A stretch of 64,000 nucleotides of DNA from positions 161,820,001-161,884,000 of the forward strand of contig OZ024742.1 in assembly GCA_964016885.1 (NCBI GenBank), read 5' to 3'. The notes under the pieces are model-generated. The model saw only the letters and a list, made by a program, of their open reading frames with translations. It was not told where the DNA came from and ran no database searches. Origin of the DNA: Eledone cirrhosa (Eukaryota). Of the stretch, positions 1 to 63,819 are shown piece after piece; the first letter of the stretch is position 1, and each line of letters begins with the position of its first letter. The translations under genes and the position numbers were made by a program.

Positions 1-2055
1 CAGTAGAATAATTAATCATGACCATTCCAATAATTTTAATAAAAGACCTAGATACAAAAACATAATCTGGTATAATGCTCCTTTCTCCATCTCTATTAAT
101 AACAATATTCCTAAATTATTTTTTAGTGCCTTAAATAAATGCTTCCCTCCCTCACATATCTATAGTAAAATATTTAACAAACACACCATCAAATTTTCGT
201 ATTCTACATCCTCCAATATTTCCAACATCATCTCTAAACACAACAATAAAATACTAAATACTAAATCTCTTCCTTCCAATATTGAATTTCATAATAACAG
301 TAATAGTACTCCCGACGTCATTGTAAACCCTAGGCTAACTTCTGTAAACCCAAATACAACGTCAAACACAACTTTGCTAAATGTTCATAATCCAACTCTA
401 AATCAAGAAACTAGTATTCCTATTATTCCTATCGCAAACAACTTCTCCAATCCAATTCCTTCTATAGATAACACTAGATCACTCATTAATAATCTCTCTA
501 ATTGCAACTGCCGCATTAAAAATAAATGTCCTCTCAACAACCATTGTCTCGATAAAAACTTAATTTATGAATGTAAAATTATAACTAGCACCAATTCCTT
601 CACCTATTTTGGCTCCACTTCCACCTCTGTTAAAGCTCGTCTCTATAATCATCATTCATCTTTCAAATACAAACTTAAAAGAACTAACACTGCTCTCTCA
701 GAACTCATATGGTCCTTAAAAGACAAAAACATTAAATATACCATCTTTTGGAAGAAGATTTCTTCTGCATCCTCATACTTGAACAGCTCTCTATCTAAAA
801 TCTGTAATCTCTGCCTAAATGAAAAATTTACCATTATCTCTAACCTAGATTCTATAATAAATAGACGCACAGATTTGTTTTCTATCTGCCTGCATAAATT
901 CCATAGAACTTTTCACAAAGTATACAGTTAATATTCAATTCTTTATCAATTTAGAATCTTTTCTCAAAGGCACATATACATACACCTCTTTAAAATATAC
1001 CCATCTACCTTACTTTAAAGGGCATTATACACTCTATAATACTTGTTTACTCATTACCCTCATTCTATCTTCACCTTGTAAAATCATAACATATACATTT
1101 GTTGTTTTGACATTAAGAATATTCATCCGCAATCATTATTATTTTTTCTCTCTATCATAAATCTTTTTAATCTCAATTTCATCCTTAATTTATTATTATT
1201 TTTTTCTCCCCATCAACGAACTCATTATTAATACATATCAACTCTTTATTCGCATATATTATCAATTCCTTCAATATACAAACTTTAACTTCACATTATT
1301 TTTCTCAAATCCTTCTACACACAAACCTTAATAATTTTCCTCTTCGTTAATTTTGAAATTGCCACAATACATACATTTCTTTTTTTGACGTTAGTATATT
1401 CATCCACAATTATTATTTTTTTCTCTCTATCTTCATACATAATTTCCCTTCGTTAATTTTCAAATTCCTTTAATTTATACATTATCTTCCAACGGTTCCC
1501 AACCTCTCTATGTTAAAACAATATATCTTTTTCTCAGTTATAAAAACTATCTCTTTCTCTCTATCACCCATCTCTCCCTCTCCACCTTCACTCTCATCTC
1601 CTCCCCCTTTTTTTCATCCTTTCCACCACCCCTCCCTAAATAAAATATTTTTTCCTCGCACATATCCTCCCTTCGTTAATTTTCAAAATTTTTAATTTAT
1701 ACATTATCTTCCAACGGTTTTCAACCTCTCTATGTAAAACAATATATCTCCTCTCAGTTATAAAAACTATCTCTTTCTCTCTATCACCCATCTCTCCCTC
1801 TCATCTCCTTCCCTTTTCATCCTTTCCACCCCCCCCCCCTCTCTAAATAAAATATTTTTCCCAATATCACACATCAATCTAAAACCACTTTTCATATGTT
1901 GATTTAAAACTGCACTATCCACAAGTGTTTTTTAGCCTTCATATCATGTTCTCCTGTTTTATCTGATGAAAACACAAATATTATTGCATGATGATGTTTG
2001 TTTTTGAAATGCGCATAATAAAATACATGGAACTCCTTTAACCATCTTTTGATCT
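1..2055 (+). mobile_element. Penelope-like element family A1 (Naiad-type), 3' part: end of RT, Cys linker, GIY-YIG endonuclease (ORF ends 931), 3' UTR with hammerhead
   Basis: NIIWYNAPF at the window start; ORF 374-931 has CNC..CPL..C, LIY..YFG, R..H, CNLC and a CLH tail. UTR has an internal direct duplication (~1440-1660 vs ~1665-1860). Confidence 0.9.
1948..2033 (+). ncRNA. Type I hammerhead ribozyme (PLE-A1)
   Basis: Stem I TTTTAT/ATAAAA; CTGATGA 1963-1969; long stem II; GAAA 2006-2009; palindromic stem III TGCGCA; AUA cleavage triplet. Confidence 0.8.
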
Positions 2056-2358
2056 TATATTATATATTATATATATATATATTATATATATATATTATAT
2101 ATATATATTATATATATATATTATATATATATATATATATTATATATATATATATATATTATATATATATATATATATATATTATATATATATTATATAT
2201 ATATATTATATATATATTATATATATATTATATATATATATATATATATATATTATATATAAATATAATATATATATATTATATATATATATTATATATA
2301 TATATTATATATATATATATTATATATAAATATAATATATATATATTATATATATATA
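2055..2358. repeat. (TA)n microsatellite with periodic TT phase shifts; similar tracts at ~5640-5830, 10538-10820, 14027-14200, 17950-18069, 21252-21552, 39863-40180, 42900-43223
   Basis: Direct reading of the sequence. Confidence 0.95.
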
Positions 2359-2359
2359 T

Positions 2360-60760: not shown

Positions 60761-60803
60761 GTCACTGAAGAGGTCACAGAATGTGTGACGAAAGAACTAT
60801 GAC
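60761..60803 (+). ncRNA. Type I hammerhead ribozyme (PLE-B); mutated copies at 55725-55767 (core CTTAAGA) and ~9781-9820 (core partly deleted)
   Basis: GTCA-CTGAAGA-G GTCACA GAATG TGTGAC-GAAA-GAAC-TA-TGAC. Confidence 0.8.
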
Positions 60804-61078
60804 AATATATAAACAACTATCTGGTTGTGGAACCAACCAACCAACCAGAAATTTATAAATTTATAAATTTATTATAAATTTATTATAATAAATTGAAGTG
60901 AAAGCAACTGGTGCGTGTGTTTCTTATTAGCAACATGACCCTCCCAAAGTATAACAATATCGGTTTCAACACACGATTTCAGATAAAGAATCTTGCTAAA
61001 CAAATTCAGAAACGAAATGTATATATATATATATATATATATATATATATATATATATATATATATATATATATATAT

Positions 61079-63819
61079 GTTTTAGGTTATCAATAATGTA
61101 GTGATAATATATCGTTACGTTAGAGATGAACAGCGTACGTGCAGGTTTGCTCAACGAGTATAAATTATATTCCGGAGAAATGTAGAAAGGATGAATATAA
61201 AATGTTAGAGCAGACAAAACATCAAACGTATATACCATGGATGTGGACACTTACAATAACTTCATCCGTAAGGAATTGCATAAAAAATACAGGAAAACTA
61301 ATGAAGCCACACTTAAAAACATCAACAACTCGGCATGTGATATTGTTAAAAAACTTTGTATTGACGATAGAACGCAACCCTTAACACCAGCTATACCATC
61401 CTTCAACCTGAAGGACCACAAGGTAAACTTCGATACTAACCCTAATATTAGACTTATATGCCCCTCTAAATCTGATATAGGTAAAATTAGCAAATATATA
61501 CTAGACAGAATTATCCCCCAAGTTAAGGTTAAAGTAGAGATTAAACTATGGGGTAACACTCATGAAGCAATAAGATGGTTTAATAACATTACTGATAAGA
61601 AAAAATCAAAATTTATTCAGTTTGATATTGATGAATATTATTCCTCAATTTCACCTGATACTCTACATGAAGCTCTTTCGTTCGCTAAGGATAATTCCGA
61701 CCTTACGGATGCTGAAATTAAAATTATTATGGAAGCGAGAAAAACTATAGTTAAATTCGATGATAGCTACTGGGTTCGCAAAGATAGACCTTCTAATTTT
61801 GATATCACTATGGGTTCTAATGATTCGGCGGAAGTAACAGATCTTGTGGGAATTTATATCACCCACAGATTACAAGGAAAATTCAAGGATCTCCACGGTG
61901 GAATTTACCGTGACGATGCGCTCCTATTAGTTAAGCATATGAATAACCAGAATTTAGAAAGGATGCGTAAAAATATCAGAAAACTTTTTAAGGAACTAGG
62001 ATTAAATATTACATTTGAATATAACCTCAAAGAGGTCAATTTCCTTGATGTTACTTTCAATCTCAATACAGATACGATTAAACCGTTCCATAAACTAAAT
62101 GAGAACCTTAAATATGTAGATACGAGTTCTAACCACCCACTCTCTATAATTAAATCCATCCCTAGAAACGTTTCTCTTAGAATCTCCCGCCTATCGTCCA
62201 ACCAACAAACCTTCAAAGAACATGCCGAGTATTATGATGATGCACTTAGGAAAGCCGGTCACCTAGATAATATAGAGTATATAGTCAAAGATCACCAAAA
62301 CACCCAAAATAAATCACATAGGAGTAGAAATAGCACAGAATCACCACCATACATACACTACCGCAATAGACACAATAATAGTCGCACACCACCAAACAGA
62401 AGGCGATGTAGGGAGTATATCTGGTACAACCCGGTCTATAACAAATCTATTAAAACCAATCTACCCTCAAAATTCATTCGATTAGTTAGAAAACACTTTC
62501 CAACATCACATAAATATAATAAAATCTTAAACCCTAACACTATTCGACTTTCATATTCAACCGCCCCTAATATTGAACAACATATAAAAAAGCTTAACGC
62601 AAAACGGTTGTATAAACGCCTTCCAACACATAACAATACACGTAAAACATTAGCTATAACATCACAAAACAACAAACAACATCCTGTCCTACATAAGCAA
62701 CCTCATCAACCCATCCATGGCAATACAACAACGCAAAATTATAATTGCAACTGTGTCCAACCAGGAATGTGTCCGTTGAACAATCAGTGTCTTGAACGCA
62801 ACATCGTATACAAATGTACTATCGAATCGGATAGACAGAAGTGGTACTATGTGGGATCTACAGCCACCTCCTTCAAATCACGCCTTTATAGACATCGTTA
62901 TTCGATAAAACATGAAAACCAGCGTTATGTAACAACACTCGCAGACAAGGCTTGGCAGCTGAGTGAAAATAACCAACAATTTCACCTAAAATGGGATATA
63001 ATAGCGGCTGCTCCCCCCCATATTCCAATGGACAGGAATTTTGTAAATTATGTAATGTAGAATTATTTTGTATTATGAAATCCAAAAACATTTTATTAAA
63101 TAACAGAATAGAGCGATCGTTATACTGTAACCATCGCTTAAAATCTACATTTTCATATTATAAATACTACCAGGATTGAACGCCTGTCTCTATCCCCGTT
63201 TGATTGTCAAAATAGATATGAACATTCTTTATTAGTCTTAATTCTATCAACTCTTCTATTATTTACCTTTTAATACAAACTGCTATAGATAAAATGAGAT
63301 TTCTGATTTCTTGATTCAATTCCCTAATGCATATACCAGCTGGCTACTAGCATTGATGTTATTTAGTAGCAATCGAAATCTCCCCCTTCCCCAATTGACA
63401 CTTTATAATTAATACTACTGCACCAAATGACCAGCCCTGTCCACTGTCCAGTTGGTCAAGTAGAGATTAAAATTGGCACTCCAAAATTCTTATTTAGATT
63501 TACTCATGGTATTCTCATTAAAAACCCATTATATACTTGTTTAGTAGTAAATTATTTTACCATCTGTCATATTCTATCCCCTCTGTTCCTTCCTCTTTTA
63601 CTAATATAAATACTTCAATTTTTCTGATTTTATCCAGTTTATCCAAAATCTCTGAAGAAGTGACAACTGATTATACATTTGCTATCGAATACTTGCTAAC
63701 ATTATATGATTACGCAAGCAGCGATACATAGGTATTCGGTCTGTTACAGAAACATATGTCAATACCTAATAAATTCCTTTTTTAACAAAAGCACTTTCAT
63801 TTTATATTCATCCTTTCTA
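61079..63819 (+). mobile_element. PLE family G (Naiad-type), 5'-truncated, RT + GIY-YIG (61205-63179, frameshift near 63020); inverted tail 61079-61204
   Basis: ADKT, LKDHK, RLICP, FDI, MGS, YRDD, SNHP, WYNP, CNC..CPL, YVG, CKLC, CNH. Confidence 0.93.
63645..63765 (+). ncRNA. Type I hammerhead with ~90-nt stem II (PLE-G); stem I imperfect
   Basis: CTGAAGA 63652; GTGACA/TGTTAC, CGAATAC/GTATTCG and TTGC/GCAA helices; GAAA 63749; palindromic CATATG; GUC triplet. Confidence 0.68.

What the first reader, a model, noticed from the sequence alone, without database searches (positions are those of the whole stretch)
1948..63765. Ten unrelated type I hammerhead families in one 64-kb window
Seen: cores at 1963(+), ~5980(-)/42746(+), 15019(+, x4), ~21675(-)/39802(+), 40455(-), 43407(-), ~49387(-)/52097(+), 53630(-), 60765(+) and 63652(+). 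Where an ORF is attached, the ribozyme is on its sense strand, and each lies close to the element 3' end. Stems differ in sequence but keep pairing. Many have palindromic or minimal stem III (TGCGCA, CTAATTAG, TATATA, CATATG, CATTG). Known: PLE pLTRs carry hammerheads. The local density and diversity make this a natural variant panel.
Basis: partly seen in the sequence, partly recalled or inferred. Interest (0 to 1): 0.7.

Follow-up and report, generated by a model that had tools for sequence, protein, structure and literature searches.

The report
Hammerhead ribozymes in nested Penelope retroelements
This stretch of animal DNA is a pile-up of Penelope-like jumping genes, and each family carries near its end the hammerhead motif, predicted to be a self-cutting RNA, already known from such elements; the less usual features are four families with a much longer second stem and one widespread family with a changed core letter.

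Summary
The motifs are real. Of 16 listed loci, a strict type I descriptor finds 11 (12 with U4 free) against 0.025-0.075 per shuffled window. A covariance model built only from other organisms' Penelope hammerheads ranks 13 of them above every other hit. Seven families have all three stems; 53636 and 63652 have a 1-2 bp stem I, and 40461 a doubtful stem II. The window is a (TA)n-rich nest of Penelope-like elements (six Hydra-clade families, two Neptune/Nematis-type) and RTE LINEs. Each hammerhead lies 63-283 nt from its element's 3' end, on the ORF strand where an ORF is attached. The 4x array is a 555-bp non-LTR retrozyme with Penelope insertion marks. 'Unrelated' is overstated: 53636 and 60765 are homologous, with two compensatory stem II changes. 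This association is published (Cervera 2014; Craig 2021), so the density reflects the element nest. New details: structured stem II regions of 31-90 nt (10-30 in 44 relatives, at most 26 in 26 published rows), and a U4A core that is the usual letter of one high-copy family in four studies. Cleavage and expression were not tested.

The parts
1955..2025 (+). Type I hammerhead, family A (Hydra-clade PLE, ORF remnant 20-928). Stem I 8 bp, stem II region 36 nt (rod), 8-nt palindromic stem III, site AUA
   Evidence: E 0.018; z -3.4
5941..5991 (-). Hammerhead, family B (Hydra-clade ORF about 8800-6925, DKT and CxCx5C motifs). Core CAGAAGA (U4A), stem III up to 7-8 bp, site CUU
   Evidence: (E 0.36)
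42741..42791 (+). Second family B copy (5'-truncated element 40818-42884). U4A core, U.U at base of stem II
   Evidence: E 0.14
14517..16950 (+). Non-LTR retrozyme-like array: 555-bp unit x4.3, 99.5-100% identical, 38% GC, longest stop-free frame 48 codons, inverted 5' arm (14517-14555), (TA)n on both sides, two different 3' end points
15014..15095 (+). Array hammerhead (also 15569-15650, 16124-16205, 16679-16760). C.A at base of stem II, stem II region 51 nt, 10-nt palindromic stem III, site GUU
   Evidence: E 1.7e-4; z -4.1
21637..21687 (-). Hammerhead, likely family C (linked to Hydra-clade ORF 28617-29597 through shared landmarks in a long degenerate (TA/TG)n 3' UTR). U.U at base of stem II, 4-bp stem III, site GUA
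   Evidence: (E 1e-7)
39796..39846 (+). Second copy of the same hammerhead (segment 39310-39851)
40375..40465 (-). Doubtful hammerhead of an ORF-less multi-copy segment (40182-40682 with inverted arm 40683-40812). Exact core, stem I 4 WC pairs, stem III 3 bp, but stem II only 3 weak pairs and a 64-nt insert that folds no better than shuffles
   Evidence: E 0.13; z 0.04
43360..43417 (-). Hammerhead, family D (Hydra-clade ORF remnant 46124-44898). Stem II region 31 nt, weak stem I (2 G.U), palindromic stem III, site AUA
   Evidence: E 4.2; z -2.6
49356..49396 (-). Family F hammerhead in the short inverted 5' arm (49208-49401) of the element
   Evidence: E 2.7e-7
52092..52136 (+). Canonical minimal hammerhead, family F (Hydra-clade ORF remnant 49695-50428), site GUA
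   Evidence: (E 5.8e-9)
53601..53638 (-). Hammerhead-like motif, family G (Neptune/Nematis-type ORF remnant 54635-53910). Stem II 6 bp, stem I only 2 bp (probably decayed)
60761..60803 (+). Minimal hammerhead, family H (Neptune/Nematis-type ORF 57217-60559; CX4CxxC linker, CCHH). Extra base between 9 and 10.1, 2-bp stem III, site CUA; about 170 nt upstream of the tail 60944-61014, which opens with an ATG and likely is the ORF start
   Evidence: E 0.014
55720..55767 (-). Decayed family H copy (core G5 changed to U) in the inverted arm 55604-57220; a further copy near 9817 (-) lacks 20 nt including the start of the core
63651..63761 (+). Hammerhead-like motif, family I (Hydra-clade ORF 61201-63164). 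90-nt structured stem II rod, palindromic stem III, site GUC, stem I only 1 bp in this copy
   Evidence: z -4.2
6925..8800 (-). Hydra-clade PLE ORF (RT, CxCx5C linker, C-terminal GIY-YIG), family B
57217..60559 (+). Neptune/Nematis-type PLE ORF in pieces (RT plus GIY-YIG), family H
61201..63164 (+). Hydra-clade PLE ORF, family I

Best explanation
The window is a nest of Penelope-like retrotransposons inserted into (TA)n, and each family carries a type I hammerhead motif in its pseudo-LTR that likely cuts read-through RNA slowly, mostly as a dimer or with help from the element's protein. Shown here: the motifs, their strand and place, their pairing, the element families and the (TA)n flanks. 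Inferred from published PLE work: a pLTR promoter transcribes tandem or partial-tandem copies; two hammerheads pair through the palindromic stem III and cleave after position 17, giving unit-length RNAs that can circularise; the GIY-YIG endonuclease nicks (TA)n and reverse transcription starts a little downstream of the hammerhead. Because the motif lies 63-283 nt from the 3' end, even short 5'-truncated copies and inverted 5' arms carry it, so hammerheads outnumber ORFs. The 555-bp array is likely a non-autonomous pLTR derivative (retrozyme) copied more than once round by a Hydra-type enzyme. Several copies here (53636, 63652, 55763, 9817, perhaps 40461) are likely decayed.
For: Descriptor 11-12 loci against 0.025-0.075 in shuffles. 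Independent model ranks 13 loci first. The motif at each of the 8 ORF-linked families lies on the ORF strand; the 49393 copy is in an inverted arm and the link for family C is inferred. 38 of 77 Hydra-like loci from metagenomes hold the same motif, 40 of 44 motifs on the ORF strand; many loci without a call end within 250 nt of the ORF match. Their alignment shows 9 of 11 pairs with changes on both sides (the rows were selected by a pairing descriptor, so this is not independent). Two compensatory stem II changes between families G and H. Palindromic stem III forms no monomer hairpin but 8-10 bp dimers in 1963, 15019, 43413 and 63652. In run X1 summed depth over the family B hammerhead bin is about ten times that over the ORF (depth is no copy number). 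Published: hammerheads universal in Hydra and other canonical PLEs, (TA)n targeting, U.U mismatches and U17 sites; dimer requirement and low activity; protein-assisted cleavage.
Against: No cleavage or expression data. In 12 of 12 folds the hammerhead-constrained structure is 1.7-8 kcal/mol above the free minimum. For the Anolis PLE, cleavage was not needed for insertion in vitro and no reads began or ended at the site, so the processing step is not established even in the best-studied case. Three of ten families lack a complete stem here. The 60765 and 53636 stem III give little or no dimer energy. No genome was held, so I could not show that this density is typical of the genome.
Confidence: 0.8

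Rival explanations
1. The folds are kept mainly as RNA structures for the element's protein (binding or reverse-transcription start signal) and cleave little or not at all; U4A and the long stems would then be tolerated drift.
For: Anolis hammerhead mutants still insert in vitro, and no RNA ends map to the site. Family B is high-copy with U4A as its usual letter. Naiads spread without canonical hammerheads.
Against: Core letters C3, G5, A6, G8, A9, G12-A15 and U16.1 are intact in all 16 listed loci here, and the descriptor that requires them finds the motif at 38 of 77 related loci while stems turn over; that pattern fits selection on chemistry.
Confidence: 0.25
2. The long stem II rods are regulatory: the strand just 3' of the cut site can invade the rod and switch the ribozyme off or on.
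For: 43413: 9-bp match between the 3' flank and the stem II insert (shuffled-flank P 0.0005, 1 of 20 tests). 63652: 7-bp match (P 0.056). Shorter 5'-flank matches in 1963 (P 0.03) and 15019 (P 0.13). Four rods are more stable than shuffles. Pseudoknots between stems I and II are common in hammerheads.
Against: AT-rich sequence; one of 20 tests significant; single copies, so no covariation; the matches use already paired bases; family B and F motifs have none.
Confidence: 0.15
3. Chance matches in AT-rich repeats, or counts inflated by assembly error.
For: The window has near-identical duplications (13053-14024 and 16981-17948 at 99.3%) and a 200-N gap; array copy number could be wrong. 40461 has no real stem II.
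Against: Shuffles give at most 1 hit in 40-200 trials and the reversed window 0. Family B and the 40461 segment are present in independent runs. Assembly error could change copy number but not the number of families.
Confidence: 0.03

Closest known systems
Hammerheads of Hydra-clade Penelope-like elements (Craig et al. 2021, PMC8557442, File S2)
   Same: Type I, in the 3' pLTR about 100-200 nt from the end (about 430 in one row), (TA)n insertion, DKT and CxCx5C protein motifs, U.U at the base of stem II (14 of 26 rows), U at position 17 (10 of 26 rows), short stem III.
   Different: Published stem II regions are at most 26 nt and all 26 rows have U4; here four well-folded ones are 31, 36, 51 and 90 nt, one family has A4, and 3' UTRs are long (0.9-1.7 kb, about 3 kb in family C).
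Minimal PLE hammerheads (Cervera and de la Pena 2014, PMC4209133; Lunse et al. 2017, title only)
   Same: Families G and H: 6-bp helix II, extra base between positions 9 and 10.1, minimal helix III, 4-bp helix I; many unrelated-looking families per genome.
   Different: Loop III of family H is not a clean palindrome; activity untested.
Non-LTR retrozymes of animals (Cervera and de la Pena 2020, PMC7229834; Li et al. 2026 preprint 10.64898/2026.07.22.740005)
   Same: Non-coding tandem repeat, one type I hammerhead per unit, GC under 45%, unit length within the reported 51-972 bp.
   Different: 51-nt stem II region with a C.A mismatch at its base; the array keeps PLE insertion marks (inverted 5' arm, two 3' end points, (TA)n both sides); parent PLE not in the window; circular RNA not shown.

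Membership tests
Type I hammerhead ribozyme | Core CUGANGA ... GAAA ... UH in type I order | tested here: met
   Exact in 14 of 16 loci; the two family B loci have U4A
Type I hammerhead ribozyme | Three stems around the core | tested here: inconclusive
   Met in 7 of 10 families; stem I 1-2 bp in 53636 and 63652; stem II weak in 40461
Type I hammerhead ribozyme | Rfam Hammerhead_1 at gathering score | tested here: not met
   0 hits at gathering; 52097 scores 19.3 against 34. A model from Hydra-type motifs does find them
Type I hammerhead ribozyme | Self-cleavage after position 17 | not testable with these tools
   Needs an assay
Hydra-clade PLE (families A, B, C, D, F, I) | RT followed by C-terminal GIY-YIG with CxCx5C linker and no CCHH | tested here: met
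   CxCx5C in all six families; no CCHH pattern seen by eye in the translations
Hydra-clade PLE (families A, B, C, D, F, I) | DKG changed to DKT | tested here: met
   Families B (8710 -) and I (61210 +); the region is missing in the others
Hydra-clade PLE (families A, B, C, D, F, I) | N-terminal RWK motif | tested here: inconclusive
   No window copy shows the N terminus; the motif is in the consensus of the homologues
Hydra-clade PLE (families A, B, C, D, F, I) | Insertion into (TA)n; hammerhead in pLTR | tested here: met
Hydra-clade PLE (families A, B, C, D, F, I) | Placement in an RT tree with reference clades | not tested
Neptune or Nematis PLE (families G, H) | CX2-5CxxC linker and CCHH in the endonuclease | tested here: met
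   which of the two clades was not resolved
Non-LTR retrozyme (14517-16950) | Tandem non-coding units, each with a complete type I hammerhead | tested here: met
   4 of 4 full units; longest stop-free frame 48 codons
Non-LTR retrozyme (14517-16950) | Transcribed and processed to circular RNA | not tested
   The one run search and one read lay went to another stretch

The most novel reading that the evidence does not exclude
In this animal lineage, Hydra-clade Penelope elements have evolved a distinct class of tuned hammerheads: stem II grown into 31-90 nt rods that the strand 3' of the cut can invade (a built-in switch), and a fixed U4A core with a stem III long enough for monomer folding, in a family that is still abundant across several organisms. 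Standard descriptors and Rfam miss them, so a large pool of such ribozymes would be uncounted, and family B would be a natural test of whether PLE hammerheads need to cut at all.
Probability: 0.2. Interest if true: 0.55.

Novelty: new variant of a known kind. Interest (0 to 1): 0.32.

Why it matters
The main observation repeats a published rule: canonical Penelope-like elements carry hammerheads. What could matter is narrower. The role of PLE hammerheads is still open, and a successful family with a changed U-turn base (U4A) plus a 7-8 bp stem III in one copy allows a direct test of whether cleavage is needed. Structured stem II regions of 31-90 nt show that size-capped searches undercount these ribozymes. 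The 555-bp array keeps PLE insertion marks, which fits the recent proposal that animal retrozymes are pLTR derivatives.

Tried and rejected
No whole genome is held, so no family consensus or genome-wide density. Rfam at gathering thresholds: no hammerhead; the E-value list was flooded by microsatellite matches. Single-protein scan of metagenomes: 0 loci; alignment scan of viral contigs: 0 loci. Run search for 40182-42884: no RNA holder listed, which says nothing on expression. Non-circular permutation for 40461 and 63652 was considered after and dropped: no second CUGANGA core lies near either motif. CTGANGA matches at 3651, 4032, 5304, 11059, 57284 and 56867 lack the stems. The loosest-core hit at 45764 (+) is at shuffle level (mean 0.5) and antisense to its ORF. 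The Rfam type III match at 49360-49412 spans the inversion junction and lacks the cleavage triplet. The 465-bp array has no hammerhead and no Rfam match at E<=5. A relaxed look at 19 of the 39 related loci without a call gave one or two more short motifs and no clear long-stem one. Earlier scan notes: none in this genome, none by sequence, none bearing on the result. Lunse et al. 2017 is not held.
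Full report
OBSERVATION. I wrote a type I descriptor allowing stem II regions up to 110 nt. It finds 11 of 16 loci with the strict core and 12 of 16 with position 4 free. Forty block-wise dinucleotide shuffles of the 53,499 unmasked bases gave means of 0.025 and 0.075 (maximum 1), and the reversed window gave 0. The four misses are 42746 (3-bp stem II under a U.U mismatch), 40461 (weak stem II), 53636 and 63652 (stem I of 2 and 1 bp). Looser descriptors recover 40461, 53636 and 63652 with shuffle means of 0-0.055 in 200 trials; these were set after seeing the motifs, so they are weaker evidence. 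Rfam at gathering scores finds no hammerhead.

INDEPENDENT TEST. An alignment of the family B protein with 50 of its 120 listed homologues and the family I protein fetched 77 related loci from metagenomes. The descriptor found 44 motifs in 38 of 77 loci, 40 of 44 on the ORF strand; many of the 39 loci without a call end within 250 nt of the match. I took 30 of the 44 (dropping duplicates, minus-strand rows and the U4C row) to build a covariance model holding no window sequence. On the window its 13 best of 37 hits are all first-reader loci (E 5.8e-9 to 0.36); 43413 is 20th (E 4.2); 53636 and 63652 are not found. E-values from this model are rough.

WHAT THE WINDOW IS. It is animal repeat DNA: about 10 kb of microsatellite, RTE-type LINEs with endonuclease, RT and PHD domains, and by my rough intervals about 59% PLE-derived sequence. 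Six families (A, B, C, D, F, I) have a CxCx5C linker before a C-terminal GIY-YIG, and B and I show DKT; these are Hydra-clade marks. Their endonucleases are 35-47% identical between families. Families G and H have a CX4CxxC linker and CCHH, so are Neptune- or Nematis-type. Several insertions show the usual PLE form of an inverted 5' arm and two different 3' ends. I did not determine the organism.

PLACE OF THE MOTIFS. Each core lies 63-283 nt before the (TA)n that ends its element, and 0.2-1.7 kb after the ORF stop where measured. All ORF-linked motifs are on the ORF strand; 49393 is in an inverted arm. The 21681/39802 motif looked orphan, but shared landmarks in a long degenerate (TA/TG)n tract chain it to the family C ORF; this link is inferred. 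In family H the motif is about 170 nt upstream of a tail that opens with an ATG, similar to the Anolis element, where the tail is the start of the ORF. The 555-bp array has four identical motifs, no ORF, an inverted 5' arm, (TA)n on both sides and two end points: a non-LTR retrozyme by the published definition.

RELATEDNESS. 'Unrelated' holds only for nucleotide similarity. G and H are 68% alike over 110 nt, and their stem II differs by two compensatory pairs. Two more H copies are decayed.

MECHANISM. Stem III from A15.1 to U16.1 is an 8-10 nt palindrome in 1963, 15019, 43413 and 63652, with no monomer hairpin and dimer energies of -3.2 to -10.5 kcal/mol. That fits the dimer model, in which PLE hammerheads cut slowly and only in pairs, or with protein help. 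Families B and C have 4-8 bp monomer stems. I favour slow processing of read-through RNA (0.8 for the whole account; the cleavage step is the least certain). Against it: constrained folds are 1.7-8 kcal/mol above the free minimum in 12 of 12 cases, and in Anolis cleavage was dispensable for insertion in vitro. The density needs no special cause: each family has a hammerhead, these elements target (TA)n, and short copies keep the motif. I could not compare with the rest of the genome.

WHAT IS LESS USUAL. (1) Stem II regions of 36, 51, 31 and 90 nt fold better than shuffles (z -3.4, -4.1, -2.6, -4.2); the 64-nt one at 40461 does not (z 0.04). In the 44 related motifs the range is 10-30 nt, and in the 26 Hydra rows of Craig's File S2 at most 26 nt, though spike-moss PLE-X rows there are longer. 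A search for long or extended stem II with retrotransposons listed 3 papers; the long helix II in the virus paper means 6-8 bp. (2) Family B has A at position 4 in both copies. Contigs from three other coded organisms and studies cover that base unchanged: X5 record 16 (42654-42768, 0 differences), X7 record 23 (42656-42759, 0 differences) and X9 record 31 (4 differences, all placed elsewhere by table 3). In X1 no change at 42747 is among the 40 best-supported rows, with 91 rows not shown. I laid 4 of 22 listed runs. None of the 44 related motifs or 26 published rows has U4A; one related motif has U4C, a variant known from viroids to lower activity yet stay viable. Searches for U4A with hammerhead found no relevant paper, but Lunse et al. 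2017 is not held and I could not see Perreault's Figure 5 or supplements; either may hold it. (3) U.U or C.A at the base of stem II and U17 sites look odd, but U.U and U17 are common in Hydra rows and U.U is known in axolotl. (4) A 9-bp match between the 3' flank and the rod in 43413 is the only significant one of 20 such tests; I treat the switch idea as speculative.

PAPERS SEEN. PMC4209133: parts 1-2 of 4. PMC8557442: passages, section 11, supplement parts 1, 2 and 7 of 59. PMC11167929: parts 1-2 of 4. Preprint 10.64898/2026.07.22.740005: part 1 of 5 and passages, no supplements. PMC3088659: section 8 and passages. PMC7229834, PMC10085705, PMC6765202, PMC6155905, PMC13725137: passages. Hammerhead numbering and the name RTE for the LINEs are from my own knowledge.

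VERDICT. Real, well above chance, and a known association. Seven complete families, three incomplete, one retrozyme array. The long stem II forms and the fixed U4A core are modest new variants worth an assay. Interest 0.32.

Noticed in passing
window 35172-38853: 465-bp unit x7.9, 99% identical, lying at the 5' end of a near-complete RTE LINE ORF (35211-31786, -) and running into the microsatellite before the 39802 segment; no hammerhead and no Rfam match. Origin unexplained.
   Followed up: partly
window 40683-40824: Chimeric junction: the inverted arm of the 40461 family starts inside the hammerhead core and joins directly to the middle of the family B ORF; suggests a template switch between PLE families or insertion at another element's end.
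   Followed up: partly
window 29600-30987 and 22183-23654: Family C appears to carry about 2.5 kb of degenerate (TA/TG)n inside its 3' UTR, conserved between copies down to landmarks.
   Followed up: partly
window 9235-9298 +: tRNA-like head (Rfam 29.9 bits) followed by sequence shared with RTE 3' ends (9399-9563): a tRNA-derived SINE likely mobilised by the RTE.
   Followed up: no
window 31786-35211 -: Open 1141-codon RTE-type frame with a PHD finger after the RT; copies at 17926-20865 and 24983-26521 are 98-99% identical, so recently active.
   Followed up: no
window 46676-46875: The 200-N gap falls where the inverted arm of family D would hold another hammerhead copy (expected near 46830).
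   Followed up: no
window 49360-49412 -: The inversion junction makes a chance type III-like fold that Rfam scores at 33.5 bits; it lacks the cleavage triplet.
   Followed up: yes
L010 2137-2185 +: A hammerhead with a U4C core and 6-bp stem I, about 850 nt upstream of a Hydra-like ORF match.
   Followed up: no
window 2361-2500 +: GC-richer 5' end of a LINE with a 7-bp helix starting with G.U; looked at by eye for an HDV-like ribozyme, the P3/P1.1 parts did not fit.
   Followed up: partly
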